DNA of 41,872 nt from a virus: IMG/VR virus record IMGVR_UViG_3300017598_000874; one strand, given 5' to 3'. Below the pieces are notes generated by a model. That model had not been told where the DNA came from, searched no databases, and saw nothing but the letters and a program-made list of their open reading frames with translations. Shown one piece after another: positions 2,679-13,318 of this stretch. Within the stretch, counting starts at the first letter, position 1; every line of letters begins with the position of its first letter. A program made the translations under genes and the position numbers.

Positions 2679-3113
2679 GCACCAAGAATAAACCTGTCAG
2701 ATTCGGTGATTGAGCGAATGACCACCGATCAAAGAAAATCCCTTAAAGTTAAAACCAGAAGTGAAATTAACGCAAAACTCGAAGAAAAAGCTGAAAAGGT
2801 AATCCAAAACGAAGTAGAGAGCTGGCTTCGGCACAACGGGTTTTGGCCCCGATCGCCCGCTTTCTTGGACGGGAAGGTGCCACCTCGGGGGTGGTACACG
2901 CACACAAACAAAGCCAAGGGAAACCCCCTCACGCTCGATCTGACGGCATGGACGCTTGAGGGGGGCAATGTACTGGAATTAGAGCTGAAGACGCTTCACG
3001 GGACGCTCAGGCCCCATCAGCGGGTTATTCTGGACACAACGCCGTGTGCAAAGCTGGCGAGGAGCACTGAAGAGGCTATTGAGATTATTAGAGAGTGGTT
3101 TAACATCCCTTGA
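2673..3113 (+). CDS. VRR-NUC-like nuclease
   Basis: Pattern EKVIQNEVESWLRHNG ... NPLTLDLTAW ... LELELKTLHGTLRPHQ fits the VRR-NUC layout (D..ExK then Q). SD agaggaaaag lies within the family-D leader. Confidence 0.65.
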   Translation: MTAPRINLSDSVIERMTTDQRKSLKVKTRSEINAKLEEKAEKVIQNEVESWLRHNGFWPRSPAFLDGKVPPRGWYTHTNKAKGNPLTLDLTAWTLEGGNVLELELKTLHGTLRPHQRVILDTTPCAKLARSTEEAIEIIREWFNIP

Positions 3114-3137
3114 CAATGAATGAAGAGAGTGTATCAT
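3110..3137 (+). promoter_or_regulatory. sigma70-like promoter
   Basis: TTGACA, 16 nt, TATCAT, with a TG at the extended -10 position. Overlaps the VRR-NUC stop. Confidence 0.55.
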
Positions 3138-3166
3138 GGATAGCTTATTAAGCGGAAGGCAATGAA

Positions 3167-3382
3167 ATGGACGATAAGGTACTGAACGAAGAACTGAAAT
3201 CAAGTGCAAGGCGGCATTCCAAGCGGCTCATCGACAAGATGAAAGAAATCGGTGACGTTCCTGCCGTGGTGCAGGATTCAATCCGCACAGAAATGGAATA
3301 CGCCACAAAAGACGGCTACCGCATCACCGCCAGACATTTCCGAAATGGAGAATTCTGTGACGAAGACACCGGCAACCGCTAA
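3167..3382 (+). CDS. hypothetical protein
   Basis: First ORF after the sigma70-like promoter at 3110-3137. SD ggaagg. Confidence 0.45.
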   Translation: MDDKVLNEELKSSARRHSKRLIDKMKEIGDVPAVVQDSIRTEMEYATKDGYRITARHFRNGEFCDEDTGNR

Positions 3383-3962
3383 AAAATCCTTCATCCTGTA
3401 CGTCGATCTGCACGATGTTGTCTCAGAAATGTCTGAGGATGAAGCTGGGCATCTCTTCAAAGCCATCCTCCATTACCAGAAATTCGGGGAGCGTCCGGAC
3501 GTTCCTAAATCTGTTAAATTTACGTTCCTTCACCTCGTTTCGCAGTTCAAAAGGGATAATGCTAAGTGGGATGATATTCGCGTAAAGCGTTCTGATGCAG
3601 GTAAAAAGGGAGCCAAGCAAAAGCTAGCACTTGCTGGCAAAAGAAAGCAAAAGTCAGCAAAACAAGCTGTTAATGTAAGTGTTAATGTAAATGTAAGTGA
3701 TATATTAAATACAATGGGGAAGGCTAGAAGGGAAAGTTTTCAGCGGTGGATGCGGTACAAGTCAGAGAAGGGCCAGACGTACAAGCCAACCGGCTTCAAA
3801 GCCCTTGTCTCAAAATGGGAGAAGGTTTCGGATGAACGGCTTAACGCCGCTGTAACGCACTCCTCTTCCAATAATTATTCAGGGCTTTTTGAGCAAAACA
3901 CGCCTGTTCCCACCCCCAACGCCATAGAGACCGGACTAACCGACGAGGACTACAAGCTATGA
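3345..3962 (+). CDS. replisome-organiser/DnaD-like protein (tentative)
   Basis: Sits immediately upstream of the DnaC-like loader, with an ATGA overlap to it. The N-terminus KKSFILYVDLHDVVSEMSEDEAGHLFKAILHY resembles phage replication-organiser N-domains. Contains a basic KKGAKQKLALAGKRKQK stretch. The start is uncertain (ORF-track start 3252 is a GTG). Confidence 0.45.
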   Translation: MENSVTKTPATAKKSFILYVDLHDVVSEMSEDEAGHLFKAILHYQKFGERPDVPKSVKFTFLHLVSQFKRDNAKWDDIRVKRSDAGKKGAKQKLALAGKRKQKSAKQAVNVSVNVNVSDILNTMGKARRESFQRWMRYKSEKGQTYKPTGFKALVSKWEKVSDERLNAAVTHSSSNNYSGLFEQNTPVPTPNAIETGLTDEDYKL

Positions 3963-4609
3963 AAATCCCCACATCCATGCTGAAGCCCCCGGACACGAGG
4001 CCGGAACCAGAGGCCAATCTCATTGACCCCCTGATCGAAAAGGTGGGAATGAGCTTTGATAAACTGAGGCTGAAACGAACCCCGCTTATTGAGGCCGTCA
4101 TGCCGGTTTTTGGGCGCATCTGGTTTGACGTGAAGGATACCGATTTGTTTCAGCATGAATTTTCACAGGAGCGCGTTGTCGATACGGGGTATGCAATAGC
4201 AAAGCAGGGCGTACTGCTTGCCGGAGACGTGGGGGTTGGGAAAACAACCATTCTTCGCAGTATGGCATCCAGAATATGCGGTGAATATCTGAGTGTTCCT
4301 GAGCTGGCAATTACCTTCTCCCGTTTTGGCGCGGAGGGTTTTTGGGAACTGCTTGAAAGGGCGAGAAGCTGGGATTTATTTTTAGACGACCTCGGAGCAG
4401 AGGAAACGGTAAAAAGCTACACCAACCCGCTTCCGATTCCAGACTTGCTTTATCGCCGGTATGATTTATGGCAGAGCAGGGGTATCCGAACCCACATCGC
4501 CAGCAACCTGTCTGCCAAAGGAATTGAGGATCGTTACGGGTTGCGGGTGAGAGACAGGTTTCGGGAAATGATGCATGTCATTCCGTGTACAGGGAAGAGT
4601 TTGAGGTGA
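3959..4609 (+). CDS. DnaC/IstB-like AAA+ helicase loader
   Basis: Walker A LLAGDVGVGKTT. Walker B DLFLDDLGAEE. Size and position fit a loader. Confidence 0.85.
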   Translation: MKIPTSMLKPPDTRPEPEANLIDPLIEKVGMSFDKLRLKRTPLIEAVMPVFGRIWFDVKDTDLFQHEFSQERVVDTGYAIAKQGVLLAGDVGVGKTTILRSMASRICGEYLSVPELAITFSRFGAEGFWELLERARSWDLFLDDLGAEETVKSYTNPLPIPDLLYRRYDLWQSRGIRTHIASNLSAKGIEDRYGLRVRDRFREMMHVIPCTGKSLR

Positions 4610-4651
4610 TGGAGAAATCAGTTTTGCGAAACAGAAATAACGGAGGACATC

Positions 4652-4924
4652 ATGTGTACTGAAAATGAAAATATTGCGGACGGCGTTGAGCATAAATCTG
4701 AATTGACTGGTTCGGTTTCTGCGTGTGACATCATCAAAACGTGGCTCAAAGAAAACGGCTACGACGGTTTGTGCGACAACGATGAATGTGGTTGCGGATT
4801 GGACGATCTTGCACCGTGCGATTACATTGGGCTCTATCACTGCGTTGCCGCGCACAAACAAGACAATGGATTATTTTATGAGGGGAAGAAATCGAGCGAC
4901 GGTGTGAGCCTCGCAGGGAAATAG
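4652..4924 (+). CDS. hypothetical acidic Cys-rich protein
   Basis: SD cggagga. CDNDECGCGLDDLAPCD. Carries the box TTGACTGGTTCG at 4703-4714. Confidence 0.5.
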   Translation: MCTENENIADGVEHKSELTGSVSACDIIKTWLKENGYDGLCDNDECGCGLDDLAPCDYIGLYHCVAAHKQDNGLFYEGKKSSDGVSLAGK

Positions 4925-4934
4925 GAGAGTGATT

Positions 4935-5234
4935 ATGCGTATGAAAACAAATTTCAAAATCTGGTGCGGGGTATTGCGTAGGTTCCACGTATCGGTTCGA
5001 TTCTTCGAGGTTGCAGCAATCCTTGGGTTTCTCGATAAAGACACATGGAGAACGTTGTTTCCTCCATTCAAAGGTTGGGACATTGGATGCTACTACTGCG
5101 ACCTGCATGACCGCTCGGTTGAGCGTGGCGTGTGTGGCTATGGAGAAAGGCGTGGTTGGAAAAAGTGTGGTCGCGTTATAGGAGAAACGAACGATAAGAT
5201 GAGGCTGAAGAGCCGAAGGAGAAACGATGACTGA
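4935..5234 (+). CDS. hypothetical protein
   Basis: ATG 4935 lies 7 nt after AGGAG (4923-4927). The 3' end is read through family-A leader copy 1. Confidence 0.4.
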   Translation: MRMKTNFKIWCGVLRRFHVSVRFFEVAAILGFLDKDTWRTLFPPFKGWDIGCYYCDLHDRSVERGVCGYGERRGWKKCGRVIGETNDKMRLKSRRRNDD

Positions 5235-5279
5235 TACAAAAAAGCGTGACGGCCTTGATAGCCTCGATGAACTGGCTGG
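5199..5279 (+). repeat. family-A leader, copy 1
   Basis: ATGAGGCTGAAGAGCCGAAGGAGAAACGATGACTGATACAAAAAAGCGTGACGGCCTTGATAGCCTCGATGAACTGGCTGG. About 93% identical to 38425-38505. Confidence 0.9.
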
Positions 5280-5445
5280 CCTGCTGGAAGAAGCTTATCG
5301 CGCTGGCTACTCACAAGGCTATGAAGGGGGTTCTGTTGACGCTGGATTGCCCCCAACGCATAACGACCATGTTTGCCCGTGGGATGGCGACTACGCGAAG
5401 GCTAGGGCGACCACCTTTCTGAAGCAGGCCAACGTACTTGCGTGA
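5227..5445 (+). CDS. hypothetical protein, family-A N-terminus (MTDTKKRDGLDSLDEL)
   Basis: SD aaggag within the conserved leader. The first 16 codons are shared with 7553 and 38453. Confidence 0.55.
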   Translation: MTDTKKRDGLDSLDELAGLLEEAYRAGYSQGYEGGSVDAGLPPTHNDHVCPWDGDYAKARATTFLKQANVLA

Positions 5446-5463
5446 CCGTGAGCGCAAACCCTC

Positions 5464-5568
5464 CTAACGACAACCATGAGGCTGAACGGATTAACCAAAG
5501 GAGTAAAGCATGAGTGAAGAAGTTAAGAAAAACGCAGGGGGCAGTGATAGCCTCAATGAACTGGTTGG
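5464..5568 (+). repeat. family-A leader, diverged copy
   Basis: CTAACGACAACCATGAGGCTGAA ... GATAGCCTCAATGAACTGGTTGG. Confidence 0.7.
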
Positions 5569-5764
5569 ATGGCAAAAGGTTGGGTCTTTCAAGACGGTTG
5601 GAGAATTGAGACATCTGCTTCATCAATACGACAAAGAGTGCTCGATTGGGTTCATCAACCAACCAAAACAGGATCTATTCCTGCGAATTGAAGATGGGCG
5701 AGGAATGTTAGGATTCCAAAGGCCATCCAACGACCCGAATCAGACTGAAGGAGCAACCAAATGA
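5510..5764 (+). CDS. hypothetical protein, diverged family-A N-terminus (..GGSDSLNELVG)
   Basis: SD aaaggag. Box GATAGCCTCAATGAACTGGTTGG at 5546-5568. Confidence 0.55.
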   Translation: MSEEVKKNAGGSDSLNELVGWQKVGSFKTVGELRHLLHQYDKECSIGFINQPKQDLFLRIEDGRGMLGFQRPSNDPNQTEGATK

Positions 5765-6012
5765 CAATGATCGAACCAAAAACGCCCGATGCGAGTGATA
5801 GTCTGAATTTGCTGGTTAGCCAAATGAATCAGGAAATCGCTAATGCGATGGCAGTTGACATTCCAAAAATCATTATGCGAAACGGAACGATTGAATATCA
5901 ACAATCTCAAACCGTGCGAGAGGCCATTCACATGCGTGACTCTGCTTTAAACACGATGGCTAACAGAAGTATAAATGGGAAAAGTCCATCTACGCATACA
6001 TCACAGGAATAA
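5761..6012 (+). CDS. hypothetical protein, diverged family-A N-terminus (..DASDSLNLLVS)
   Basis: ATGA overlap with the upstream stop. Box at 5797-5819. The 3' end runs through family-D partial copy D. Confidence 0.5.
   Translation: MTMIEPKTPDASDSLNLLVSQMNQEIANAMAVDIPKIIMRNGTIEYQQSQTVREAIHMRDSALNTMANRSINGKSPSTHTSQE
5960..5996 (+). repeat. family-D, partial copy D
   Basis: CTAACAGAAGTATAAATGGGAAAAGTCCATCTACGCA. Confidence 0.7.
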
Positions 6013-6096
6013 AAAAACCTGAACTTTATGCTTGCACTTCCAAGTGCATATGCAATGCTAAAGGAACGATCAGGTTGAGCCTGAAGGAGCAAGCAG

Positions 6097-6336
6097 ATGA
6101 CTACAGATAAAACACAAAACGCGGGCGTTGCGACTGATAGCGCTCTAACCTCTGGCTCGGCAATGATTATGTCGTTTGTTACCGGACAAGATGCCTCTCT
6201 TTTTGGTGGGTGTGGGCGGTGCGACGCAACCGGATTGATTCACATCGAAGAAGGGAACTACTCGACTGATTGCCCTGACTGTCAAAGGAAAATAAATGAG
6301 AAAAGGAGAATAAATGAGAACTGGAAAAAATCATAA
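6097..6336 (+). CDS. hypothetical Zn-ribbon protein
   Basis: SD gaaggag. CGRC...CPDC. A weak box copy lies at 6136-6159. Confidence 0.5.
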   Translation: MTTDKTQNAGVATDSALTSGSAMIMSFVTGQDASLFGGCGRCDATGLIHIEEGNYSTDCPDCQRKINEKRRINENWKKS

Positions 6337-6469
6337 TGTTTATCTCAACCCGGTAGATTGGGATGAGCTAAAAGAAATCGGAGTGAAACATCGCCTCGAA
6401 CTGGAGAAACCCTCGAATTCTACAGGGGTGAGAGCGCTTCTTCGGTTCTGGAGAAAACATAAAAAATGA
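6314..6469 (+). CDS. small ORF (51 aa), possible ribbon-helix-helix-like
   Basis: Below the ORF-track cutoff and read by hand: MRTGKNHNVYLNPVDWDELKEIG...RALLRFWRKHKK. SD aaaaggaga. Overlaps the previous ORF by 23 nt. Confidence 0.3.
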   Translation: MRTGKNHNVYLNPVDWDELKEIGVKHRLELEKPSNSTGVRALLRFWRKHKK

Positions 6470-6529
6470 AGTCATCAGACATAAAGTTAGAAAATATCGA
6501 AGGCGACGGAGTAAAACAGGAGAAATAAG

Positions 6530-7171
6530 ATGAAATGGAAAAACGACACAACAGGCATGGCTCTCGACGGAGGTGTTTACGATGCCGTCTGTTGTAGCAT
6601 TATTGACATCGGCACCCAGCACGGTGAATGGCAGGGGAAAGAGAAAATTAAACGTCAGTGCATCATCGGGTGGGAGCTGCTTGACGAAACCTATGAAAAA
6701 GACGGAGAAACAAAGCGGTGTCATGCCAGCGAGTTTTACACGCAAAGCCTTGATCCCAGAGCAACACTTCGCAAACACCTGAAGGGCTGGCGCGGACGAG
6801 ACTTCACGCCGGAAGAACTGGCTGGGTTTGAACCTAAAAACATTCTCGGAAAGCCCTGCTCGCTTATGCTGGAACTAACTGACAAAGGGAAGAACCGCGT
6901 TGAAGCCATTAGTAAATATAAAGGTACAGATCAGCCCTCCCCGGAGGGTGACATTCGTTATTTTATGATGACGGATGATGACGGGAATATCACCTTTAAC
7001 GGCTATTTTCCCGAATGGATGAGCGACGGCATTAAAAAACTGATTGAAAAGTCAGATGAGTACCGAATTATCACAGGCGATTTAGTGCCTGTGACGGAGC
7101 CTCCCGAGTCCAGCGATTATGTCGGCGATGCTGTTCCTCCAGAAAATGAGGATGATAAAATCCCGTTCTAA
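6530..7171 (+). CDS. phage ssDNA-binding-like protein with SSB-type C-terminal tip
   Basis: The acidic C-terminal tail ends in PENEDDKIPF, which matches the bacterial SSB tip DDDIPF. SD caggaga. The body resembles phage DUF669-type SSB-like proteins (from memory, unverified). Confidence 0.6.
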   Translation: MKWKNDTTGMALDGGVYDAVCCSIIDIGTQHGEWQGKEKIKRQCIIGWELLDETYEKDGETKRCHASEFYTQSLDPRATLRKHLKGWRGRDFTPEELAGFEPKNILGKPCSLMLELTDKGKNRVEAISKYKGTDQPSPEGDIRYFMMTDDDGNITFNGYFPEWMSDGIKKLIEKSDEYRIITGDLVPVTEPPESSDYVGDAVPPENEDDKIPF

Positions 7172-7196
7172 CGAAAAAGATCAGGGGCTGGATGCT

Positions 7197-7262
7197 CCAA
7201 AGGAGACTACAGATGAGCGATAAAAACGCGGCGGGGCAAGACGTACCTTCCATTGACTGGTT
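7197..7262 (+). repeat. family-B leader, copy 1 (66 bp perfect)
   Basis: CCAAAGGAGACTACAGATGAGCGATAAAAACGCGGCGGGGCAAGACGTACCTTCCATTGACTGGTT, identical to 8174-8239. Confidence 0.95.
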
Positions 7263-7407
7263 AGCTGTATCGTTGAATGACTTGAAAGCACGAAGAGGGT
7301 GCGGATCGGCATACGACCAACTGATAAACGAGCGGAAAATATCCGACTTATTGGAAATGGCATCCAACGACAACCATGAGGCTGAAGAGCCGAAGGAGAA
7401 ACAATGA
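7213..7407 (+). CDS. hypothetical protein, family-B N-terminus (MSDKNAAGQDVPSIDWL)
   Basis: ATG 7213 follows aaaggag. The first 17 codons are identical to the ORF at 8190. Confidence 0.5.
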   Translation: MSDKNAAGQDVPSIDWLAVSLNDLKARRGCGSAYDQLINERKISDLLEMASNDNHEAEEPKEKQ

Positions 7408-7408
7408 C
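7364..7408 (+). repeat. family-A leader, left half (copy 2a)
   Basis: CCAACGACAACCATGAGGCTGAAGAGCCGAAGGAGAAACAATGAC. Confidence 0.9.
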
Positions 7409-7556
7409 AGAGTCCGCAGGATACGACGTTGATTGCACCCATGTCTCCAACTGCTGTGGGGCAGACCTTCGGATTGAAGGAAGGACTACGCAATACTATG
7501 TGTGCGAAAATTGCGGATACCCTTGTGATATTCGAGAGCCGAAGGAGAAACGATGA
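7404..7556 (+). CDS. small Zn-ribbon ORF (50 aa) between duplicated leader halves
   Basis: Read by hand: MTESAGYDVDCTHVSNCCGADLRIEGRTTQYYVCENCGYPCDIREPKEKR. Uses the family-A SD. Confidence 0.45.
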   Translation: MTESAGYDVDCTHVSNCCGADLRIEGRTTQYYVCENCGYPCDIREPKEKR

Positions 7557-7605
7557 CTGACACAAAAAAGCGTGACGGCCTTGATAGCCTCGATTCGCTG
7601 GTTCG
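7535..7605 (+). repeat. family-A leader, right part (copy 2b)
   Basis: AGAGCCGAAGGAGAAACGATGACTGACACAAAAAAGCGTGACGGCCTTGATAGCCTCGATTCGCTGGTTCG. Confidence 0.9.
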
Positions 7606-7819
7606 CCCAACAATCTTACTGGACATTCAAATGTACGTCGAGTGTCCGCACTGCGGAGAAGAACACGATCTTGCGCGATCAGAGTTCAACGCAGAGGGTG
7701 AGCACCTTTCTGCCCTATTCACGGGGGACAGTTACGACTGGCGAAAAAACTTGGACGGATCAGAGTTTGAATGTCCAGAGTGCAACAAAACATTTGAGCT
7801 AGGCGAGATCGAATGGTGA
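7553..7819 (+). CDS. hypothetical double Zn-ribbon protein, family-A N-terminus
   Basis: MTDTKKRDGLDSLDSL then CPHCG...CPECN. Conserved SD. Confidence 0.6.
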   Translation: MTDTKKRDGLDSLDSLVRPTILLDIQMYVECPHCGEEHDLARSEFNAEGEHLSALFTGDSYDWRKNLDGSEFECPECNKTFELGEIEW

Positions 7820-7871
7820 GGGCGAACGCCACCGATGAGGCTTTGCCAAAACAACAAAAGGAGAATGACCA

Positions 7872-8141
7872 ATGAAGAAAATTAAAACATTACTGTGCGG
7901 GTTAGCAATAGCCTCGATTGGCTTGTTGTCTGGCTGTGATGAGCATCAAAAAACAGCCCCCGCTTATCCCCACGACAGAAACATGAAAACAGTAAACAAC
8001 GATGTCAGCCGAAACGGATCTCGCTATCAGGGAGGGTTCCAAAAAACAGAGTGGGACGGGCACCTTTGGGTTATGCGCGTTCACGGAAACATGGTTGATG
8101 CGCTTGCGCATCACCCTGACTGTGCGTGCAACAACAGATGA
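7872..8141 (+). CDS. putative lipoprotein
   Basis: Signal peptide plus lipobox LLSGC (MKKIKTLLCGLAIASIGLLSGCDEH). SD aaaaggaga. Confidence 0.65.
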   Translation: MKKIKTLLCGLAIASIGLLSGCDEHQKTAPAYPHDRNMKTVNNDVSRNGSRYQGGFQKTEWDGHLWVMRVHGNMVDALAHHPDCACNNR

Positions 8142-8173
8142 CAGACAACGAAAACAATGAGGGGCGGATTGCC

Positions 8174-8239
8174 CCAAAGGAGACTACAGATGAGCGATAA
8201 AAACGCGGCGGGGCAAGACGTACCTTCCATTGACTGGTT
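8174..8239 (+). repeat. family-B leader, copy 2 (66 bp perfect)
   Basis: Identical to 7197-7262. Preceded by the hairpin GGGGCggattGCCCC. Confidence 0.95.
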
Positions 8240-8402
8240 GGAAGTAGATATTCTTTCTGTTGATTTTGAAACAAACGAAATGGTTCTGATTCTACCAAAA
8301 GAAGTGGTGGCGCGTGGATTTCACGCCGGAAAAGTTAAGGTTGATCTTTCGGGCGTACAACGTACTTCCAACGACAAGGTGAACCGTGAGCGTAGCGAAT
8401 AG
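8190..8402 (+). CDS. hypothetical protein, family-B N-terminus
   Basis: ATG 8190 lies inside the 66-bp perfect repeat 8174-8239. The 3' end runs into a CCAACGAC box. Confidence 0.5.
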   Translation: MSDKNAAGQDVPSIDWLEVDILSVDFETNEMVLILPKEVVARGFHAGKVKVDLSGVQRTSNDKVNRERSE

Positions 8403-8452
8403 GCTCCACTTTCTGGTTAGGCGAACACTAAACACAAACAAAGGAGACGACA

Positions 8453-8671
8453 ATGAAAGACCAAGTACTGAAAATTGTAAAAAACGCACTCGCAGGAACC
8501 GAAGACAACCTTTACCGCGCAAACATGCAGTTTGGGCGAATGACTCCAGAACAATTAAAAGGCGAATACGGGCAGTCCGGCGAAACGTGCGGAAAGATTA
8601 TGCAGGGCTACAGAGACGAAAACGAAAAACTGAAACAGTGCGTGGCATGGGTCGAGGACTGCCCCGCCTAA
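8453..8671 (+). CDS. hypothetical protein
   Basis: SD aaaggaga. A CTGGTTAG box lies 33 nt upstream of the ATG. Confidence 0.55.
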   Translation: MKDQVLKIVKNALAGTEDNLYRANMQFGRMTPEQLKGEYGQSGETCGKIMQGYRDENEKLKQCVAWVEDCPA

Positions 8672-8763
8672 CGACAAGATAACCAGCGGGAAAACCGCGA
8701 AGGGGTCAAGATGAAGGATAAAATTTCGGGCGGTTTTCACCGTATGGTTCATTTTCTGGTTAG
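8668..8763 (+). repeat. family-C leader, copy 1 (96 bp perfect)
   Basis: CTAACGACAAGATAACCAGCGGG...CATTTTCTGGTTAG, identical to 38158-38253. Confidence 0.95.
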
Positions 8764-8887
8764 CTTCCGCGCTGGAAGATTGAACGACATCAACATCTTT
8801 GAGGTGATATTGCTTTCGGCAATCGTTGGATCATTGCTTGGGGCTATCATTTACATGGGATTCCTTGAGTTAATCAAGGGAAGCTAA
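8711..8887 (+). CDS. small membrane protein (58 aa), family-C N-terminus (MKDKISGGFHRMVHFLVS)
   Basis: Read by hand. Begins inside the 96-bp perfect repeat. C-terminal TM segment VILLSAIVGSLLGAIIYMGFL. Confidence 0.5.
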   Translation: MKDKISGGFHRMVHFLVSFRAGRLNDINIFEVILLSAIVGSLLGAIIYMGFLELIKGS

Positions 8888-8923
8888 CGACAAAGTGAGT
8901 CTCCGAGGCTCGAAAGGACACAA

Positions 8924-9250
8924 ATGAAAAAAGCATCTGAAATTTTTGAAGACCAAAGAGGTTCGGCGTTTGCTGAATGCGTTGCGGAGCCGAAGGTAGA
9001 TTCTATGGCTGGTTCGATTCCAGTATTTACGGAAAAAAACTTAAGGGAGTGCTCTTTTTTGGCAGAGGGAACGGTGTTTGTTTCCGAGCATAACGACCCG
9101 CTCAAATACTGGGTAGAAATCGCGTTCTGTCGAAGCGTTGGGGTTTTCTTCCAAAAGAAAGACGCTGTCGAGTACGCAGAATTTATCAAATCGAACAGAG
9201 GTATAGATATAAAAAGTACATCTACGCAGATATTAAAGAGGAAAAGATGA
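8924..9250 (+). CDS. hypothetical protein
   Basis: SD aaagga. Contains GAGCCGAAGG and CTGGTTCG (9009-9016) repeat fragments. The 3' end is read through family-D copy B. Confidence 0.5.
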   Translation: MKKASEIFEDQRGSAFAECVAEPKVDSMAGSIPVFTEKNLRECSFLAEGTVFVSEHNDPLKYWVEIAFCRSVGVFFQKKDAVEYAEFIKSNRGIDIKSTSTQILKRKR

Positions 9251-9252
9251 CT
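9188..9252 (+). repeat. family-D leader, copy B (upstream of the SleB-like hydrolase)
   Basis: AAATCGAACAGAGGTATAGATATAAAAAGTACATCTACGCAGATATTAAAGAGGAAAAGATGACT. Confidence 0.9.
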
Positions 9253-9624
9253 ACTGGACTATTACTTGCATTAACTATCTGGCTAGAAGCGCGGGACGAA
9301 CCCTTTGAGGGAAAACTTGCCGTGGCTCAGGTTGTCATGGAGCGGGTGGCGGACAGCCGCTGGCCTGATACTGTCAGAGAAGTAATCCTGCAACCGAAGC
9401 AGTTCACCTGCTGGAACGGGCGGACACCATCGACAGCGCAGGTTCCGGCACAGCCTGATGAGGCATGGACGGCCTGCTGCGCCGCCGCAAGAGCGGTGCT
9501 TATGGACTCTGTGTTTCCGGACGGCTTCAATCATTATTATAATCCGAAGCGTTGCTCCCCGCTGTGGGCAAAAAGGGCCAAACGCACCATAAAAATCAAC
9601 AACCACTTATTTTTAGAATTATGA
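9247..9624 (+). CDS. SleB/CwlJ-family cell-wall hydrolase (endolysin candidate)
   Basis: TIWLEARDEPFEGKLAVAQVVMERV...QPKQFTCW...HYYNP...INNHLF matches the Hydrolase_2 (SleB) domain pattern EARGE..G..AVA.V..NR...QP.QF...YyNP...gnH.F. Confidence 0.9.
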   Translation: MTTGLLLALTIWLEARDEPFEGKLAVAQVVMERVADSRWPDTVREVILQPKQFTCWNGRTPSTAQVPAQPDEAWTACCAAARAVLMDSVFPDGFNHYYNPKRCSPLWAKRAKRTIKINNHLFLEL

Positions 9625-9672
9625 CCGCCCCTTTTTTAAACACACTTAATCACAGACGGAGATTGAGACAAA

Positions 9673-9792
9673 ATGAAAAACAAGACTACGAAAAGTCGGA
9701 GGGTTAGCTTGATTGATGTTATTGGGCTATCAATTTTGATTGCCGGAATAATCGCCGTTGTGGAGATTCTGCGGATTATTTACACAAGCTAA
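9673..9792 (+). CDS. small single-TM protein (39 aa), holin-like candidate
   Basis: Read by hand: MKNKTTKSRRVSLIDVIGLSILIAGIIAVVEILRIIYTS. Lies directly downstream of the hydrolase. Confidence 0.4.
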   Translation: MKNKTTKSRRVSLIDVIGLSILIAGIIAVVEILRIIYTS

Positions 9793-9822
9793 CGTTAATC
9801 ATCAGTTTCGAGGAGAAAGACT

Positions 9823-10065
9823 ATGACCGAAGAAAACAAACGTTGTACTCGTAAAATGAATGATCTGGTTAGATGTCCTTTTTGCAAGACGGAAGGTGAA
9901 TATCTGACAACGGTTATTGATGACAACAAAGCGTGGGTAAGTTGCTTTGAATGCGGTTGCAAGGGGCCATTTGCTATTGACTCAAGTTATGGGGATAGCG
10001 CGTCAAAGTTTGCACGAATACTATGGAACAACTCAGCATCTAACAGAAGTATAAATGGAAAATGA
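9823..10065 (+). CDS. Lar-family restriction-alleviation-like Zn-ribbon protein
   Basis: RCPFCKTEGEY...VSCFECGCKGPF...ARILWNN fits the Lar pattern CPFCG...C..Cg....A...WN. SD gaggaga. Confidence 0.6.
   Translation: MTEENKRCTRKMNDLVRCPFCKTEGEYLTTVIDDNKAWVSCFECGCKGPFAIDSSYGDSASKFARILWNNSASNRSINGK
10040..10064 (+). repeat. family-D, partial copy E
   Basis: CTAACAGAAGTATAAATGGAAAATG. The ATG of ORF 10062 lies inside it. Confidence 0.6.
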
Positions 10066-10301
10066 CGGCGCGATTAGCAGGGCGGATTGATTCCAGATTC
10101 TGTCCCGAGTGCCGAGAGTGGTATGAGGTGGAGGTTGGTCTGGCTACCAACGCTCAGGTTTACTGCACAACCGAATGCCGGATTGATGCTCGAAACCGGC
10201 GGCGGAGAAGGCGGGCCAGAGCAGCCAGCGCAATTCCGGTTGCCGAACAGGTTCGCCGGTGGGATTTACGTAAAGACCTAAAAAGAAAGGATGCGATATG
10301 A
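10062..10301 (+). CDS. Zn-ribbon + Arg-rich protein
   Basis: FCPEC...YCTTEC then RNRRRRRRAR. The CxxC..YC(S/T)xxC ribbon is shared with the ORF at 39474. Confidence 0.5.
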   Translation: MTARLAGRIDSRFCPECREWYEVEVGLATNAQVYCTTECRIDARNRRRRRRARAASAIPVAEQVRRWDLRKDLKRKDAI

Positions 10302-10438
10302 AAAGCGACAAAATGTCTTTTACCCAATATTTAAAGTTTTGGCTCAAGATCCACTTTGAGGACATTCGCCAGCCAGCAGATCAGGATCGTTATGCAGATG
10401 CACAGGGTTTTCATTCAATCTCCCGCGTGGCCGGTTAG
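10298..10438 (+). CDS. small ORF (46 aa), last on the plus arm
   Basis: ATGA coupling to the upstream ORF. Overlaps the 3' end of the convergent minus-strand ORF by 24 nt. Confidence 0.25.
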   Translation: MKSDKMSFTQYLKFWLKIHFEDIRQPADQDRYADAQGFHSISRVAG

Positions 10439-10714
10439 TTTGAGCACCATGAAAACAAGTCCGAGTATCGAGCCGAGCAGAGTTACCGCGCCGGGCCAGT
10501 TGAGCGCGTGGCGGGGTTTGGTGGCGGGGCAAGAGGCCATGCGAGCGCGGCATTCACGACTGCTGACAAATTCAGCATGGAACTGAATCCGGTTGGCGCG
10601 GATGAGGTAGCGGATGGCATCGCTCATGGTACCGGGGTCGCCGCGGTTTCCATTGCTGAGATCATTCTCCAGGCGCTCCCCCTCTAAAATCAGCTCCTTC
10701 TGTTCCGGTGTCAT
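10415..10714 (-). CDS. tail-anchored membrane protein (C-terminal TM), lysis or spanin-like candidate
   Basis: C-terminal TM WPGAVTLLGSILGLVFMVL. Last gene of the minus arm, next to a small lipoprotein gene. Confidence 0.45.
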   Translation of the reverse strand: MTPEQKELILEGERLENDLSNGNRGDPGTMSDAIRYLIRANRIQFHAEFVSSRECRARMASCPATKPRHALNWPGAVTLLGSILGLVFMVLKLTGHAGD

Positions 10715-10753
10715 AGTCTTCGTCCTTTTGCTCCCGGCCTTTGAACTTTATTG

Positions 10754-10963
10754 TTATTGCACCGGAATGGTGGTTTCGGGGGCAACGGCTCCGCCGCCTT
10801 CCATGTCTCTCACCGCTTCCGAATTGTTGTCGCTGCCGTCTGTATTCTGCGCCGCCGAGCGGCTGGTCAGGGCCTGACTGTTCGCGTTCACCGAATCAAT
10901 CCGTCCGGCCACGATGCACCCGCTCAGGAGTGCCGCTATTGTTAATAGTACTAGTATTTTCAT
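10754..10963 (-). CDS. small lipoprotein (o-spanin-like or exclusion candidate)
   Basis: MKILVLLTIAALLSGC lipobox. 69 aa. Flanked by a 15-bp direct repeat. Confidence 0.55.
   Translation of the reverse strand: MKILVLLTIAALLSGCIVAGRIDSVNANSQALTSRSAAQNTDGSDNNSEAVRDMEGGGAVAPETTIPVQ
10755..10769. repeat. 15-bp direct repeat, copy 1
   Basis: TATTGCACCGGAATG, identical to 10975-10989. Confidence 0.9.
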
Positions 10964-10974
10964 CGCTTATCCTC

Positions 10975-10989
10975 TATTGCACCGGAATG
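10975..10989. repeat. 15-bp direct repeat, copy 2
   Basis: TATTGCACCGGAATG. The two copies bracket the small lipoprotein gene. Confidence 0.9.
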
Positions 10990-10993
10990 TAGT

Positions 10994-12148
10994 TTATTCT
11001 CCGGTTAATTGTGTCTTAAACGCGGCAAAATCGGTAATTCCAGAAATCCCCACAGACTTTCCTTCTGTCATAGACTCCAAAATGTCGGCCATCAATGTTG
11101 GAGAGACAGTTAAATTTTTGTGTGTAGTTGAATCAGGCAATATCCACTTCGACCAACAAGATTTATAAACGGTTTCACCCTGACCGGGAATTTGATAGGG
11201 GTTGTTGCCGAAGAGCCGATTCGTTTCATTCACCAGCCCCACAGGGCAAAGGATTGCCACGCCGCCACTGTTTTTGGTTGGCCTGATGTGTGCAGCATTA
11301 TCAAAATCTAAATAGAATGTATCTGTATCATTTACCCACGTATCGAAACGCGGGATGTAATCTCTGGCTTCAACTTTACCGTTCTCGTAAATTTTGAGCA
11401 GACATATGCTCATGCCATCCTCAGCAGTCGTTCCCCAAAGAGGAATGTTGGGTTTAACCATGTGGACAATTGACTCATAATGGGCTGATACACGATTATA
11501 ATGGGAGTGATTATGTCCCATTACCGTCATTTTAATATTGGGGTGTTTTGCAATTACGCGGGAGCGAAACCCTTCCATATCCGCATCCACAGTTTGTCCG
11601 TCAACCAGAAAATAAGAGTGCGTTACAATTATACCAACCGCATTAGGGTTTGCAGTAAGAAGGGTGTTCGCCCACGTCTCAACCTCTGTTCTCGGATTCA
11701 TCTCCACACAAATAAACAGATAATCCCTGCCTTGGACAGCCAGCTTGTAAGCAACATTATTAATGTCCCCCTCTTTATACGCCCCTGCAAAATAAGATTT
11801 ATTTTCATAGCGGGAAGATGGGAATTCTTCATGCAAATAGGTGACACGACTGTTTGGCAGTTCAGCTTCCCCTCCAACCATATCGTGATTGCCCGTAGCA
11901 ATTAAAAATGGAACCTCCGCTTCCTCTATCGGCAAAAGAATATTCTTAGCCGCCGCGTTTACAATGCGGTGGAAAGATGCCGGACTGTTGTATTGCGCAT
12001 TTGACACGTCCCCCACGTGAACTACGAGTTGAATATTCTCAGCAACAATGTTATCCGCAACCCACTCTGCCATGAGCCGTTCGGTTTCCGCATCGGAGCC
12101 GTGACTGTAGTGCGTGTCGGGGATCAGAGCCAGTGTCCAATATTCCAT
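10994..12148 (-). CDS. calcineurin-like metallophosphoesterase
   Basis: Motifs in order: LIPDTHYSHG (DxH), HVGDVSN (GD), TGNHDM (GNHD), IVTHSY (H), VMGHNHSH (GHxH). Confidence 0.85.
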   Translation of the reverse strand: MEYWTLALIPDTHYSHGSDAETERLMAEWVADNIVAENIQLVVHVGDVSNAQYNSPASFHRIVNAAAKNILLPIEEAEVPFLIATGNHDMVGGEAELPNSRVTYLHEEFPSSRYENKSYFAGAYKEGDINNVAYKLAVQGRDYLFICVEMNPRTEVETWANTLLTANPNAVGIIVTHSYFLVDGQTVDADMEGFRSRVIAKHPNIKMTVMGHNHSHYNRVSAHYESIVHMVKPNIPLWGTTAEDGMSICLLKIYENGKVEARDYIPRFDTWVNDTDTFYLDFDNAAHIRPTKNSGGVAILCPVGLVNETNRLFGNNPYQIPGQGETVYKSCWSKWILPDSTTHKNLTVSPTLMADILESMTEGKSVGISGITDFAAFKTQLTGE

Positions 12149-13305
12149 TACTCAGCCCCGGCTAAAATTGCAGGCTCATCGATGTATCCATGATAAAACT
12201 GCCCAACTGATACATCATCTGGGTTAGCACCCATCCCCACTTGATCAGGAGTAAAAAAAGATGTTGAATCAGTGACGTTGGAAGCAACCAATTCCAGATT
12301 ATTCCACTCTGTCCCCACCCAGAGTTGCTGGTTGTCAACGGCAAGGAAGCGTCCCTCTACGCAATACCACGTTCCATCATTATATTGTTCGGCAGAAGTT
12401 GCGTGTCTCTCTGCCGTATTCCGCATTATCGTGCGAAGTTTTCCATTAGATGTTCCGATATAGAACTGTTTATCGTTTTCTGCCTTGTCGATCAGCGAAA
12501 TAATTGTTCCGATTGTCGTATTTGTAAATGCCGCCCGTGATCTTATCCGGAACGGATAGCCGGTAATATCATCAATATCACATTGTGCATAATCATCTGC
12601 TCCGTCAAAGGACCAGCACTCTTTACCCGCATATGTTGTAGCGGTTGGCTGATAGCCCATTCCCGTCTGTGTCATATCGTTTTCTTTAATGGAAAAATCA
12701 TGCCAAACGGCATTCGTTGTCTCGGAATCAATAACGGGATATTTTCCACTTAGCAACAATACAGAATCTATGCAGTCGGGATGAAAGGCCGCTAAATGAG
12801 CCAACGTCCCGTAAAGATTATCCGCCGCAATACGCGCCGTCTCTTCATCGGCCAGCGGGCCGGAATGAAACTCAACTGTAACGTCTGATAATACTCCATT
12901 AGAATACCAGCCATCATACGGGGGGAGGTAAGCCGCCGTATTATTAGTATAATCTTGGCCATCGACATCCAGAAGCCAATATGTATTCCATGCAAGGCCC
13001 GAGTAATATGGATGTTCCTCATACATATCTTGAAACGAATAAACTCCGTTACTTAGCGTTCCACTCACGACCACATACGAGTTCGTGAGCCATCCCCCAA
13101 CCGTCTTCGCCAGATCAAGCGTGTTGGTTGTATTGGCCGCATCCCCCGCAATCCGGGCCGTCGTCTCGGTGGCAAGGCCAGAGGCCGTTGCCGGAGTCGG
13201 AGATATGATGATCTCTTTCAGCACCGTTTCACCAACGACTTCGGTCGTAAACGTCCCCCCATAAACGCATCCCGCCAGCAATGTAAGTATCAGTATCTTC
13301 TTCAT
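12148..13305 (-). CDS. lipobox-bearing protein with C-terminal LamG/concanavalin-like domain (receptor-binding candidate)
   Basis: MKKILILTLLAGC lipobox. The C-terminus WSFDGADDYAQCD...WYCVEGRF...LWVGTEW...GMGAN...FYGYIDEPAI fits the LamG pattern. Confidence 0.7.
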   Translation of the reverse strand: MKKILILTLLAGCVYGGTFTTEVVGETVLKEIIISPTPATASGLATETTARIAGDAANTTNTLDLAKTVGGWLTNSYVVVSGTLSNGVYSFQDMYEEHPYYSGLAWNTYWLLDVDGQDYTNNTAAYLPPYDGWYSNGVLSDVTVEFHSGPLADEETARIAADNLYGTLAHLAAFHPDCIDSVLLLSGKYPVIDSETTNAVWHDFSIKENDMTQTGMGYQPTATTYAGKECWSFDGADDYAQCDIDDITGYPFRIRSRAAFTNTTIGTIISLIDKAENDKQFYIGTSNGKLRTIMRNTAERHATSAEQYNDGTWYCVEGRFLAVDNQQLWVGTEWNNLELVASNVTDSTSFFTPDQVGMGANPDDVSVGQFYHGYIDEPAILAGAE

Positions 13306-13318
13306 CTTGGTTCTCCTT

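What the first reader, a model, noticed from the sequence alone, without database searches (positions are those of the whole stretch)
8668..8763. Family-C: a 96-bp perfect repeat on the two early sub-arms, with a built-in 7-bp long-range stem around the start codon
8668-8763 equals 38158-38253 (96/96), and the flanks differ on both sides. Each copy begins at the TAA of the upstream gene (CTAACGAC) and contains TAACCAG at its 5' side and CTGGTTA at its 3' end. These can pair across about 66 nt and enclose the SD, the ATG and 15 codons (MKDKISGGFHRMVHFLVS).

The two ORFs then diverge into a 58-aa TM protein and a 71-aa soluble protein. Related but diverged versions lie at 921-970 (MKTKRWRVPCMVQLLVG, GTATGGTTCAACTTCTGGTTGG) and 2335-2417.
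Basis: seen in the sequence. Interest (0 to 1): 0.65.

Follow-up and report, generated by a model that had tools for sequence, protein, structure and literature searches.

The report
Hairpin gene-start cassettes in a phage
The 96-base perfect repeat is two copies of a portable, hairpin-forming "gene-start cassette" (upstream stop codon, ribosome-binding site, start codon, about 16 codons) that an uncultured marine phage lineage places in front of many unrelated small early genes.

Summary
In detail: 8668-8763 equals 38158-38253 (96/96) and the flanks are unrelated. The window is a circular phage contig, so both copies lie on one continuous early arm, 12,261 bp apart.

The proposed 7-bp stem is not the favoured fold. 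The whole element folds as one long imperfect hairpin (-34.3 kcal/mol, z about -5), running from the upstream TAA (CUAAC) to GUUAG in codon 17. The ribosome-binding site and AUG sit in its apical loop.

At least 17 early genes, in about 9 sequence families, have this architecture. Each family's two arms are complementary to each other and not to other families' arms (0 of 7,437 permutations). One helix pair takes four Watson-Crick types, and the sense strand folds better.

ORF bodies behind shared heads are unrelated. In unrelated marine metagenomes only the cassettes are covered, at 90-99% identity, each with different flanks.

No promoter, terminator, integrase or Rfam family matches.

Best reading: a structured intercistronic RNA module that also acts as a recombination joint, comparable in role to T4 PeSLs. 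The identity of the two copies reflects recent copying within this genome. The biochemical function is inferred, not shown.

The parts
8668..8763 (+). Family-C cassette, copy C1: whole hairpin module from CTAAC to GTTAG
   Evidence: 96/96 identical to 38158-38253. Folds at -34.3 kcal/mol, z -4.8 to -5.2. The only part of 8560-8870 covered by foreign metagenome contigs.
38158..38253 (+). Family-C cassette, copy C2
   Evidence: Shares the private G at the position equivalent to 8717, where all five foreign runs that covered it (X1-X5) show only A.
8669..8671 (+). TAA stop of upstream ORF 8453-8671, inside the basal helix (CUAAC)
8668..8702 (+). 5' arm of the C1 hairpin.
   Evidence: MFE pair list.
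8699..8713 (+). SD-like GAAGGGG (8699-8705) and ATG (8711-8713) in the apical region
   Evidence: paired probability of the region -14..+6 around the ATG (TIR, translation-initiation region) is 0.42, against 0.89 and 0.77 for the arms.
8724..8763 (+). 3' arm of the C1 hairpin = codons 5-18 (S G G F H R M V H F L V S).
   Evidence: 8735-8763 is invariant in metagenome copies.
8711..8887 (+). 58-aa ORF headed by C1; its body is unrelated to that of C2
38201..38416 (+). 71-aa ORF headed by C2
880..971 (+). Family-C member C3 (70% identical to C1). Heads the 63-aa Cys-rich ORF 921-1112. The inner long-range helix is kept; the outer part is lost.
2335..2417 (+). C4: diverged relative sharing the 3' arm (GTTTTCACCGTA..CTGGTTGG). 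A hairpin that lies just before the ATG at 2424.
   Evidence: D10; E=0.007. L002:12082-12158 is its counterpart.
7168..7265 (+). Cassette D9a (heads ORF 7213-7407)
   Evidence: (D9).
8145..8242 (+). Cassette D9b (heads ORF 8190-8402). End-to-end hairpin, -32.4 kcal/mol, z -4.35.
   Evidence: 28 bits with the Family-C model; foreign contigs cover 8146-8241 only.
5464..5569 (+). Cassette G1 (heads ORF 5510-5764). Inner helix UGAGGCU/AGCCUCA.
5727..5820 (+). Cassette G2 (heads ORF 5761-6012). Inner helix UCAGACU/AGUCUGA, compensatory relative to G1.
6063..6160 (+). Cassette G3 (heads ORF 6097-6336). Arms AGGUUGAGC/GCUC(U)AACCU.
7823..7930 (+). Cassette G4 (heads lipoprotein-like ORF 7872-8141). 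The 3' arm ATAGCCTCGAT is read in a different frame than in G5/G6.
   Evidence: (L004 90% identical over 116 nt).
5188..5280 (+). Cassette G5 (heads ORF 5227-5445)
   Evidence: (D1/D2).
38413..38506 (+). Cassette G6 (heads ORF 38453-38701)
7364..7411 (+). 5' half-cassette (AACGAC + GGCU-GAAG-AGCC hairpin + SD + ATG) heading ORF 7404-7556. No matching 3' arm.
   Evidence: (D2).
7535..7607 (+). 3' part of a D1-type cassette heading ORF 7553-7819. Its 5' arm has been replaced.
   Evidence: (D1).
8884..9017 (+). Cassette E1 (heads ORF 8924-9250). Starts on the TAA of the C1-headed ORF.
9789..9873 (+). Cassette F (heads Lar-like ORF 9823-10065). CUAAC/GUUAG ends.
2012..2094 (+). H-type hairpin (UGAGCCU/AGGUUCU) ending in CTGGTTAGGAG, which supplies the SD for the ATG at 2105
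   Evidence: (-31.2 kcal/mol cognate duplex).
4885..5009 (+). H-type cassette around the ATG at 4935
   Evidence: (E about 0.01).
8368..8421 (+). Mini-element without an ORF start (CCAACGAC...CTGGTTAGG), upstream of ORF 8453-8671
   Evidence: E=0.03.

Best explanation
The 96-nt repeat is two copies of a modular gene-start cassette. Each cassette holds the upstream gene's stop codon, a leader, an SD, the ATG and about 16 codons.

Shown here:
- On the sense RNA the two halves of the cassette pair into one long imperfect hairpin. Its base is CUAAC (containing the upstream UAA) paired with GUUAG (codons 17-18). The SD and AUG lie in the comparatively open apical loop.
- The same syntax, (Y)AACGA - 5' arm - SD - ATG - 3' arm - CTGGTT(R)G, heads at least 17 small early ORFs in about 9 sequence families, in this phage and in distant relatives.
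- The arms of each family co-vary.
- The ORF bodies behind identical heads are unrelated.
- The cassettes, but not the genes between them, recur at 90-99% identity with other flanks in marine metagenomes.

Inferred:
- (i) The cassettes are patches of homology at which small early ORFs of unknown function (ORFans) are exchanged by ordinary homologous or short-homology recombination. Breakpoints are seen at the AACGA end, in the local hairpin, at the SD/ATG and at CTGGTT.
- (ii) C1 and C2 are identical because one was recently copied onto the other within this genome, by gene conversion or duplication. The tract is bounded by the ends of the homology.
- (iii) On the polycistronic early mRNA the helix acts as an intercistronic module. 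It closes the translation-initiation region into a loop, so initiation is insulated from the variable ORF body. It may also be coupled to termination at the UAA in the helix base, and/or the helix may serve as a processing or stability element.
For: Structure:
- C1/C2 fold at -34.3 to -34.5 kcal/mol, z -4.8 to -5.25, with 0 of 200 shuffles as stable. D9b gives z -4.35.
- In all 17 cassettes the MFE has 6-36 pairs enclosing the ATG. Mean paired probability is 0.34 for the TIR (the region -14..+6 around the ATG) against 0.62-0.64 for the arms.

Co-evolution of the arms:
- Cognate 5'/3' arm duplexes average -20.6 kcal/mol, against -13.7 +/- 1.0 for deranged pairings of 11 family representatives (0 of 7,437).
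- In the G/H/E inner helix, 94% of cells are paired and the covariation score is 0.307 against 0.131 (0 of 500 shuffles). One pair takes GC:5, CG:4, AU:1, UA:1. Sliding the partner collapses pairing to 28-61%.
- In Family C, 3 of 22 consensus pairs show compensatory changes. The +U after 8689 and -U at 8734 travel together.

RNA level rather than DNA level:
- The sense strand is more stable than the antisense strand in 16 of 21 cassettes (Wilcoxon p=0.006).
- All non-training hits of the covariance model built from Family C (model R1) with E<1 lie on the coding strand.
- The 3' arm ATAGCCTCGAT is read in two different reading frames.

Modularity:
- ORF bodies behind shared heads are unrelated, z<1.5.
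- L003, L155 and L004 carry the heads at 77-90% nt identity on otherwise unalignable DNA.
- Foreign contigs cover only 5199-5275, 5465-5568, 5729-5820, 6064-6159, 7364-7411, 8146-8241 and 8666-8769, plus one gene-body piece at 7417-7543. Each runs into different flanks.
- The syntax AACG..ATG..CTGGTT occurs 9 times against 1.1 expected.

Recent copying: all five foreign runs that covered position 8717 (X1-X5) show only A there, while C1 and C2 share G.

Stop codon: the upstream ORF ends on the TAA in CTAAC in at least 7 window cassettes.
Against: - No experimental or transcript data exist. No RNA-seq run holds the sequence, so the function of the helix is inference only.
- Some elements are compact hairpins with no TIR inside them: 8368-8421, 2012-2094, two tandem ones in L004:1552-1630, and an apparent apex-deleted C variant in run X4. 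Enclosing the RBS is therefore not obligatory, and the arms are the conserved core.
- Within Family C the arms are nearly invariant across metagenomes rather than covarying. That pattern fits recent spread or protein recognition as well as it fits RNA pairing.
- D9a, L003-C and several G cassettes fold no better than shuffles on their own (z -1.2 to +0.1).
- Covariation of the outermost pair (YAAC/GTTR) was not significant by my hand count (11 of 18 paired against about 9 expected).
- The invariant AACGAC and CTGGTT motifs shared by all families are unexplained.
Confidence: 0.55

Rival explanations
1. A discrete 7-bp stem, TAACCAG/CTGGTTA, brackets the SD and ATG and gates translation initiation.
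For: Both heptamers are present. The L003 homologue keeps AACCAG/CUGGUU and uses that register in its MFE.
Against: In C1/C2 this register is 7.3 kcal/mol worse than the MFE and has pair probability about 0. C3 has no AACCAG at all. Other families lack an upstream AACCAG even though they end in CTGGTT.
Confidence: 0.08
2. RNA processing and stability element. The long imperfect duplex is an RNase III-type (or other endonuclease) site that cuts the polycistronic early mRNA at each gene boundary, or a hairpin that protects transcript ends, as at T7 early RNase III sites. Having the TIR in the loop would be secondary.
For: C1, C2, D9b and H1 have roughly 25-33 bp of imperfect coaxial duplex with bulges. 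The elements sit exactly at gene boundaries, starting on the stop codon. Compact versions without a TIR exist. The portal is related only distantly (21-25% identity) to those of isolated podoviruses, including Pelagibacter and enterobacterial phages, and the genome has a single long early arm.
Against: Many cassettes (G1, G2, G5, G6, F) have only 6-7 bp plus 5 bp separated by large internal loops, which makes them poor RNase III substrates. Cleaving both arms would cut inside the coding sequence. No transcript data are available.
Confidence: 0.2
3. DNA-level recombination site. The imperfect palindrome with ends resembling RYYYAAC / GTTRRRY is a folded-DNA substrate for a site-specific or structure-specific recombinase or nuclease, like an integron attC, or the inverted repeats of a MITE-like mobile element.
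For: The ends GCCTAAC ... GTTAGGC/GTTGGGT resemble the attC R'' and R' boxes (the consensus is from my own knowledge). The arms are invariant while the apex varies and is sometimes deleted. The cassettes occur in many contexts with sharp common boundaries. L001 is a 12,261-bp circle-like contig closed through the repeat.
Against: No integrase, transposase or HNH gene was found among 49 window proteins scanned. The element is not linked to the upstream ORF as an attC would be: C1 and C2 have different upstream genes. Breakpoints occur at several positions inside cassettes, not at one crossover point. The elements occur only in the sense orientation and in register with stop and start codons. 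The sense (top) strand folds better than the bottom strand. G-U pairs occur in covarying helices.
Confidence: 0.12
4. The conserved head is a functional N-terminal peptide, such as a targeting, packaging or signal sequence, and the nucleotide identity is only a by-product.
For: The reading frame is kept through the cassette in variants with three separate 1-nt deletions. G4's head is a lipoprotein-type signal peptide.
Against: The untranslated 5' arm is as conserved as the coding arm. Codons 2-8 are the most variable part. The same 3' arm sequence is read in two frames. CTGGTT occupies three different frames. The heads of different families have nothing in common as peptides. There are no Pfam hits.
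Confidence: 0.04
5. Assembly artefact: one copy is a mis-join or a collapsed repeat.
For: L001, an independent contig, breaks and closes inside the repeat.
Against: The repeat (96 nt) is shorter than the 121-nt end overlap of the contig. L001 confirms both inner junctions (C2 into its downstream flank, and the flank upstream of C1 into C1) at 100% identity. Related cassettes with other flanks are common in independent data sets.
Confidence: 0.02

Closest known systems
PeSLs (promoter-early stem-loops) of T4-type phages (PMC2839356, PMC4122927)
   Same: Short conserved composite regulatory cassettes. They lie between small ORFs of unknown function (ORFans) in a plastic early region, end with the SD and start codon of the downstream gene, and contain a stem-loop. 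They come in families that differ between phage groups and mark the breakpoints of insertions, deletions and replacements. Recombination between two copies can give circles.
   Different: PeSLs are a terminator stem-loop plus a sigma70-like promoter and stop at the ATG. Here there is no promoter and no terminator. The stem is a long-range helix that encloses the SD and ATG. The cassette also includes the upstream stop codon and about 16 codons, so exchange creates head-body chimeric proteins.
SAS/ESAS of Cluster K mycobacteriophages (PMC3203893)
   Same: Repeats tied to translation start sites of genes from different families, all in one orientation. ESAS have imperfect inverted repeats. Their function is unknown, with a suspected role in translation.
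   Different: SAS is a fixed 13-mer (GGGATAGGAGCCC) overlapping the SD, and it is absent here. The ESAS inverted repeats (17 bp, 4-13 bp spacer) lie wholly upstream of the start. They do not enclose it or extend into the coding sequence.
Integron attC sites (own knowledge)
   Same: Imperfect palindromes of about 60-140 nt at cassette boundaries. The ends resemble RYYYAAC / GTTRRRY, and the stop codon of the upstream ORF often lies in the first box.
   Different: No IntI-type integrase. The top or sense strand folds better. The element is not inherited with the upstream ORF. There are multiple breakpoints. It contains the next gene's SD, ATG and first codons.
RNase III sites between early genes of T7 (own knowledge)
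   Same: Imperfect hairpins with internal loops at gene boundaries of a long polycistronic early mRNA of a podovirus.
   Different: T7 sites lie between the stop codon and the next RBS and do not contain the initiation region or coding sequence. Cleavage here is untested.
Long-range mRNA pairings controlling initiation in RNA coliphages (MS2 Min Jou interaction) and structure-based translational coupling (own knowledge)
   Same: Pairing between a segment upstream of an RBS and a segment in coding sequence, which can be opened by ribosomes translating or terminating upstream.
   Different: In those systems the RBS itself is occluded. Here the SD and AUG are left in the loop, and the module is repeated, portable and present in many families.
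Small palindromic repeats of bacteria (ERIC/IRU, Correia/NEMIS, REP/BIME) (own knowledge)
   Same: Imperfect palindromes of about 100 nt, dispersed in transcribed intergenic regions. They fold in mRNA and affect stability or processing, and deletion derivatives exist.
   Different: Those elements insert in both orientations and do not carry a gene's start. Here the elements occur only in the sense orientation, in register with stop and start codons, and are part of the ORF.

Membership tests
PeSL (T4-type promoter-early stem-loop) | sigma70-like -35/-10 promoter inside the element | tested here: not met
   four promoter-like sites in 5000-9400, as many as in shuffles (4.3), and none inside a cassette.
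PeSL (T4-type promoter-early stem-loop) | Stem-loop acting as an intrinsic terminator upstream of the promoter | tested here: not met
   the only + strand terminator-like site (6158-6174) overlaps just the last bases of cassette G3, and the total equals chance. The local hairpins (e.g. GCGG-GAAAA-CCGC) lack a U-tract.
PeSL (T4-type promoter-early stem-loop) | SD and start codon of the downstream gene at the 3' end; located between ORFans of a plastic region; breakpoints of gene replacement fall in the element | tested here: met
   The element extends about 16 codons further than a PeSL does.
PeSL (T4-type promoter-early stem-loop) | Recombination between two copies yields circles or deletions | tested here: inconclusive
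   L001 is a 12,261-bp arc plus a 58-nt end overlap, closed through the repeat. It could equally be a product of assembly-graph pruning.
Integron attC | R''/R' boxes RYYYAAC ... GTTRRRY | tested here: inconclusive
   GCCTAAC...GTTAGCT in C1. Full matches occur at some cassettes (GTTGGGT, GTTAGGC, GTTGGAT), but many depart from the consensus.
Integron attC | An IntI-type tyrosine recombinase encoded nearby | tested here: not met
   No integrase in Pfam or PHROG scans of 49 window proteins. Small ORFs were not all scanned.
Integron attC | attC travels with the ORF upstream of it; a single crossover at G|TT | tested here: not met
   C1 and C2 have unrelated upstream ORFs. Breakpoints lie at several positions.
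Integron attC | The bottom strand is the folded, recombined strand | tested here: not met
   The sense (top) strand is more stable in 16 of 21 cassettes.
SAS/ESAS (Cluster K mycobacteriophages) | 13-bp SAS GGGATAGGAGCCC just upstream of starts | tested here: not met
   0 matches with up to 2 mismatches.
SAS/ESAS (Cluster K mycobacteriophages) | 17-bp imperfect inverted repeats, 4-13 bp spacer, upstream of the SAS | tested here: not met
   Here the arms flank the start codon and are 30-70 nt apart.
RNase III processing site (T7-type) | About 20 bp or more of imperfect duplex with an internal loop, in a transcript | tested here: inconclusive
   Met by C1, C2, D9b and H1. Not met by G1, G2, G5, G6 and F.
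RNase III processing site (T7-type) | Cleavage by RNase III | not testable with these tools
   No RNA data are available.
MITE-like palindromic repeat (ERIC/Correia type) | Terminal inverted repeats; dispersed copies with sharp ends; deletion derivatives | tested here: met
MITE-like palindromic repeat (ERIC/Correia type) | Insertion in either orientation, with target-site duplication | tested here: not met
   All copies are on the coding strand. No duplication is visible at the C1 or C2 flanks.
Rfam RNA families | Match to any curated covariance model | tested here: not met
   nothing at gathering score. One chance-level snoRNA hit at E=0.086.

The most novel reading that the evidence does not exclude
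The cassettes may be the sites of a dedicated cassette-exchange system in lytic phages. In this reading, hairpin modules of about 95 nt bound every small early ORF of unknown function (ORFan) and are recognised as folded DNA or RNA by a so-far unidentified phage or host factor. They would move ORF bodies between genomes and automatically supply each one with a stop for its neighbour, an RBS, a start codon and an N-terminal head. That would be a phage analogue of the integron that creates head-body fusion genes. The invariant AACGAC and CTGGTT motifs at the hairpin base would be the recognition sequence.
Probability: 0.15. Interest if true: 0.9.

Novelty: new variant of a known kind. Interest (0 to 1): 0.68.

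Why it matters
Phage early regions are full of small, fast-changing genes of unknown origin, many of them involved in host takeover or anti-defence. How such genes are swapped while staying expressible is an open question. So far the only worked-out example is the PeSL system of T4-type phages.

These cassettes would be a second, different solution. They are a structured translation-initiation module that includes the neighbour's stop codon and the first codons of the gene, so any ORF body joined at CTGGTT is expressed from a standard, insulated start.

The covariation gives a concrete RNA structure to test. The sharp, conserved ends give markers for tracing gene flow in uncultured marine phages. 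The design resembles engineered insulated ribosome-binding sites and could be reused as one.

Tried and rejected
- Close relatives in public collections: none. GenBank phages gave no match by megablast or blastn.
- IMG/VR scans found nothing: a nuclease-based search and three exact cassette patterns had no hits. A loose 18-mer and a gapped pattern gave only chance hits.
- GTDB genomes: 0 hits for two exact cassette patterns, so there is no host clue.
- JGI metagenome scan with a gapped Family-C pattern: 37 hits, of which only L155 is a real member.
- Exact-protein look-ups of the two C-headed ORFs: not on record.
- Pfam on the heads and bodies of the C ORFs: nothing.
- Integron or attC reading: rejected, see the membership test.
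- A Chi-like or primase-site reading of CTGGTT: rejected, because the motif is tied to a fixed distance (42-63 nt) from start codons.
- Bypass, readthrough or fusion ideas: TAA and ATG are in frame in C1/C2 (42 nt apart) but not in L155 or D9a, so dropped.
- A per-gene 'start-enclosing pair' score over all early and late genes was too dependent on context to use. C1 and C2 gave 23.9 and 45.3 from the same element.
- Covariation of the outermost YAAC/GTTR pair, by hand count: 11 of 18 paired against about 9 expected, not significant.
- Antisense-strand terminators at cassette hairpins: 2 of 6 sites, no more than chance.
- Head swapping on orthologous bodies could not be tested. L002-L006 share almost no ORF bodies with the window.
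- Metatranscriptomes: none hold the sequence.
Full report
**What is in the sequence**

Positions 8668-8763 and 38158-38253 are identical (96/96). The match runs to 99 nt with one mismatch, and the flanks on both sides are unrelated.

The window is a circular assembly. Positions 1-121 repeat at 41752-41872, giving a unit of 41,751 bp.
- The - strand from about 11000 to 35300 carries the terminase, portal, major head and tail genes.
- The + strand from about 35400, through the end, to about 11000 is one uninterrupted arm of about 70 small genes.
- The two copies therefore lie on one arm, 12,261 bp apart, not on two sub-arms.

The portal is only 21-25% identical to those of isolated podoviruses. 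No GenBank phage, IMG/VR contig or GTDB genome shares DNA with the region. This is an uncultured marine lineage.

**The fold**

The energy is -34.3 kcal/mol, z = -4.8 to -5.25, and none of 200 dinucleotide shuffles is as stable.

The pairs in C1 are as follows:
- CUAAC 8668-8672, which contains the upstream UAA, pairs with GUUAG 8759-8763.
- AAGAU pairs with AUUUU.
- AACCA 8681-8685 pairs with the UGGUU of AUGGUUCA.
- A GC-rich 13-bp core joins 8687-8698 to 8730-8742, with one bulged A.
- A weak GAAG/UUUC pairing follows.
- The rest of the SD (GG) and the AUG (8711) lie in the apical region.

The idea of a long-range helix around the start codon is therefore right. The particular stem is not, except in one homologue (L003), where AUGGUU has mutated and the CUGGUU register is used.

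**It is one of many**

Repeat finding already showed several other families that span gene starts: D1, D2, D9, D10 and D13.

CTGGTT lies 42-63 nt after the ATG of a dozen early ORFs with unrelated N-termini, in three different reading frames. The pattern AACG-N30-60-ATG-N36-66-CTGGTT occurs 9 times against 1.1 expected.

I catalogued 17 cassettes with the initiation region inside the hairpin, 13 in the window and 4 in related loci. There are also a few compact hairpins without a start. In all 17 the MFE contains 6-36 pairs that enclose the ATG. The region -14..+6 has a mean paired probability of 0.34, against 0.62-0.64 for the arms.

A covariance model built from Family C alone gives weak hits to the other families, all on the coding strand: D9b at 28 bits and E=6e-5, plus C4, 4885-5009, 8360-8430 and cassettes in L002, L003 and L004.

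**The arms co-evolve**

- Cognate 5'/3' arm duplexes average -20.6 kcal/mol. Deranged pairings of 11 family representatives give -13.7 +/- 1.0, and none of 7,437 reaches the observed value.
- For the inner helix of the G/H/E cassettes (UGAGGCU/AGCCUCA and variants, 12 sequences), 94% of cells pair. The covariation score is 0.307 against 0.131 (0 of 500 shuffles).
- One pair in that helix appears as G-C (5), C-G (4), A-U (1) and U-A (1), and three G-U pairs occur. Sliding the partner by 1-3 columns drops pairing to 28-61%.
- In Family C, RNAalifold recovers the long-range helix with three compensated pairs. The L155-type variant has an extra U in the 5' arm opposite the A that is bulged in C1, and one U fewer in the 3' arm.

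**RNA rather than DNA**

The sense strand folds better than the antisense strand in 16 of 21 cassettes (mean 2.7 kcal/mol, p=0.006). Orientation is strictly that of the genes.

The 3' arm ATAGCCTCGAT encodes D-S-L-D in three ORFs and I-A-S-I in a lipoprotein signal peptide. The constraint is therefore on nucleotides, not on the peptide.

**Heads and bodies**

Behind identical or near-identical heads, the ORF bodies are unrelated. Local alignment z is below 1.5 for C1/C2/C3, D9a/D9b, the three D1 ORFs and G1/G2/G3.

Bodies include a zinc ribbon, a Lar-like protein, a lipoprotein and TM peptides.

The heads also occur in distant phages:
- L003, whose nuclease is 52% identical, carries a Family-C cassette at 75-85% nt identity on otherwise unalignable DNA, heading an unrelated 63-aa ORF.
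- L155 carries one at 85%.
- L004 carries the G4 cassette at 90%.

**Spread in nature**

Logan contigs from seawater and marine-sediment metagenomes of five studies were laid on 5150-9300. They cover only the cassettes: 5199-5275, 5465-5568, 5729-5820, 6064-6159, 7364-7411, 8146-8241 and 8666-8769. The one exception is a single gene-body piece at 7417-7543.

Depth reaches 490 in one run. Every contig runs on into flanks unlike the window and unlike each other.

In Family C all listed variation lies in 8689-8734. That region holds the loop of the local hairpin, the SD-ATG spacing and codons 2-8. The arms 8668-8688 and 8735-8763 are invariant.

One contig appears to lack 8696-8740, which would be a compact hairpin made of the arms only. 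Contigs also join halves of different cassettes or leave a cassette at the SD. In the window, 7364-7411 and 7535-7607 are half-cassettes. Breakpoints are therefore multiple. That fits homologous or short-homology recombination rather than a single crossover site.

**Why the two copies are identical**

All five foreign runs that covered position 8717 (X1-X5) show only A there, while C1 and C2 share G. The two copies are thus each other's closest relatives.

This points to copying within this genome, by gene conversion or duplication. The tract is limited by the ends of the homology.

An independent JGI contig, L001, is 100% identical to 38177..8744. Its length is 12,261 + 58 nt, and its first and last 58 nt are identical. 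It is exactly the arc between the copies, closed through the repeat. That may be an assembler's cycle or a real recombination product.

**What it is not**

- No sigma70-type promoter or intrinsic terminator lies in the cassettes, so they are not PeSLs as defined in PMC2839356 and PMC4122927.
- The SAS 13-mer of Cluster K mycobacteriophages is absent (PMC3203893).
- The ends resemble integron attC boxes, but no integrase was found in 49 scanned proteins. The element is also not inherited with the upstream ORF, and the top strand folds better.
- No Rfam family matches.

**Mechanism**

Shown: a selected sense-strand helix between a leader segment that begins on the upstream stop codon and a segment in codons 5-18; modular heads on unrelated bodies; dispersal of the cassettes.

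Inferred: the cassettes are homology patches for exchange of small early ORFs of unknown function (ORFans). On the early polycistronic mRNA they act as an intercistronic module that presents the SD and AUG in a closed loop.

The upstream ORF stops on the TAA in the helix base in at least 7 window cassettes. Where TAAC has become CAAC, the upstream ORF reads through to an ATGA overlap. This suggests a link with upstream termination.

A processing or stability role of the RNase III type is a serious alternative and is not exclusive. The compact TIR-less hairpins show that the arms, not the enclosed start, are the conserved core. The AACGAC and CTGGTT motifs common to all families remain unexplained. 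No transcript data exist.

**Verdict**

The feature is a member of a previously undescribed class of structured gene-start cassettes. Functionally it is closest to PeSL-type modular shuffling, but it is built differently.

Interest is 0.68. Confidence in the overall explanation is 0.55: the structure and the modularity are well supported, while the biochemical role is open.

Noticed in passing
L001:1-12319 (= window 38177..41751/1..8744): An independent JGI contig is exactly the 12,261-bp arc between the two Family-C copies plus a 58-nt end overlap, so it looks circular and is closed through the repeat. The arc carries the replisome organiser, a DnaC-like loader and the nuclease. It could be an assembly cycle or a real circle or tandem made by C2 x C1 recombination.
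   Followed up: partly
window 2613-2676, 5970-6013, 9187-9250, 39278-39341: Another repeat family (D6/D7): TATAAATATAAAAAGTCCATCTACGCAGATATTAAAGAGGAAAAGATG, lying directly before the ATG of ORFs 2673, 9247 (endolysin) and 39338, with a partial copy at 5970. It looks like a phage-specific promoter or leader rather than a hairpin cassette.
   Followed up: no
window 35567-37448 and 39986-40012: Seven copies of AAACCGAAAYGGAGACAGGAAATGAAA, a fixed RBS context for the first genes of the early arm. This is a different start-site convention from the hairpin cassettes.
   Followed up: no
window 35495-35536 and 36946-36987: A 42-nt repeat containing TTGACC-N17-TAGAGT. These are likely host-type early promoters at the head of the early arm.
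   Followed up: no
window 17652-19558 (- strand, inside ORF 14767-20877): Five copies of a 41-nt repeat (TTTAGCAGGAGCCTCTTGGGRGGTGGGTTTG), spaced 354-531 nt apart inside the 2036-aa ORF, which has no Pfam match. This implies a repeated protein module conserved at the nucleotide level.
   Followed up: no
L004:1552-1630: Two compact cassette-like hairpins in tandem (AACGC..GAGCCU-loop-AGGCUC-UGGUUAAAC, then AAACGAGCG..CGCUC..CTGGTTGG) with no ORF start inside.
   Followed up: partly
window 8695/8741 (run X4): One metagenome contig joins 8695 to 8741, skipping 45 nt. This would be a Family-C variant without its apex (SD, ATG, first codons), leaving only the two arms.
   Followed up: no
window 41623-41751/1-924: A 350-aa early protein with a PD-(D/E)XK nuclease domain. 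Many homologues carry an N-terminal HIRAN domain (PF08797). It is the only early gene found shared at 48-63% identity with the cassette-bearing relatives L002-L006, apart from weaker matches of g6530 (36%) and the endolysin g9247 (30%).
   Followed up: partly
window 9823-10065: The ORF headed by cassette F has a near-threshold match to the Lar restriction-alleviation family (27.3 bits against a cut-off of 28.6). This suggests that cassette-headed ORFs include anti-defence genes.
   Followed up: no
window 10994-12148 (- strand): A metallophosphoesterase with a weak SbcD-like match (a palindrome-specific nuclease subunit) in a genome rich in imperfect palindromes. The adjacent 385-aa ORF 12148-13305 has no match.
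   Followed up: no
all cassettes, e.g. 8670-8675 and 8756-8761: The hexamers AACGAC (5' base) and CTGGTT (3' base) are shared by cassette families whose arms otherwise differ. They pair only partly with each other. Their role (a protein or RNase recognition site?) is unexplained.
   Followed up: partly
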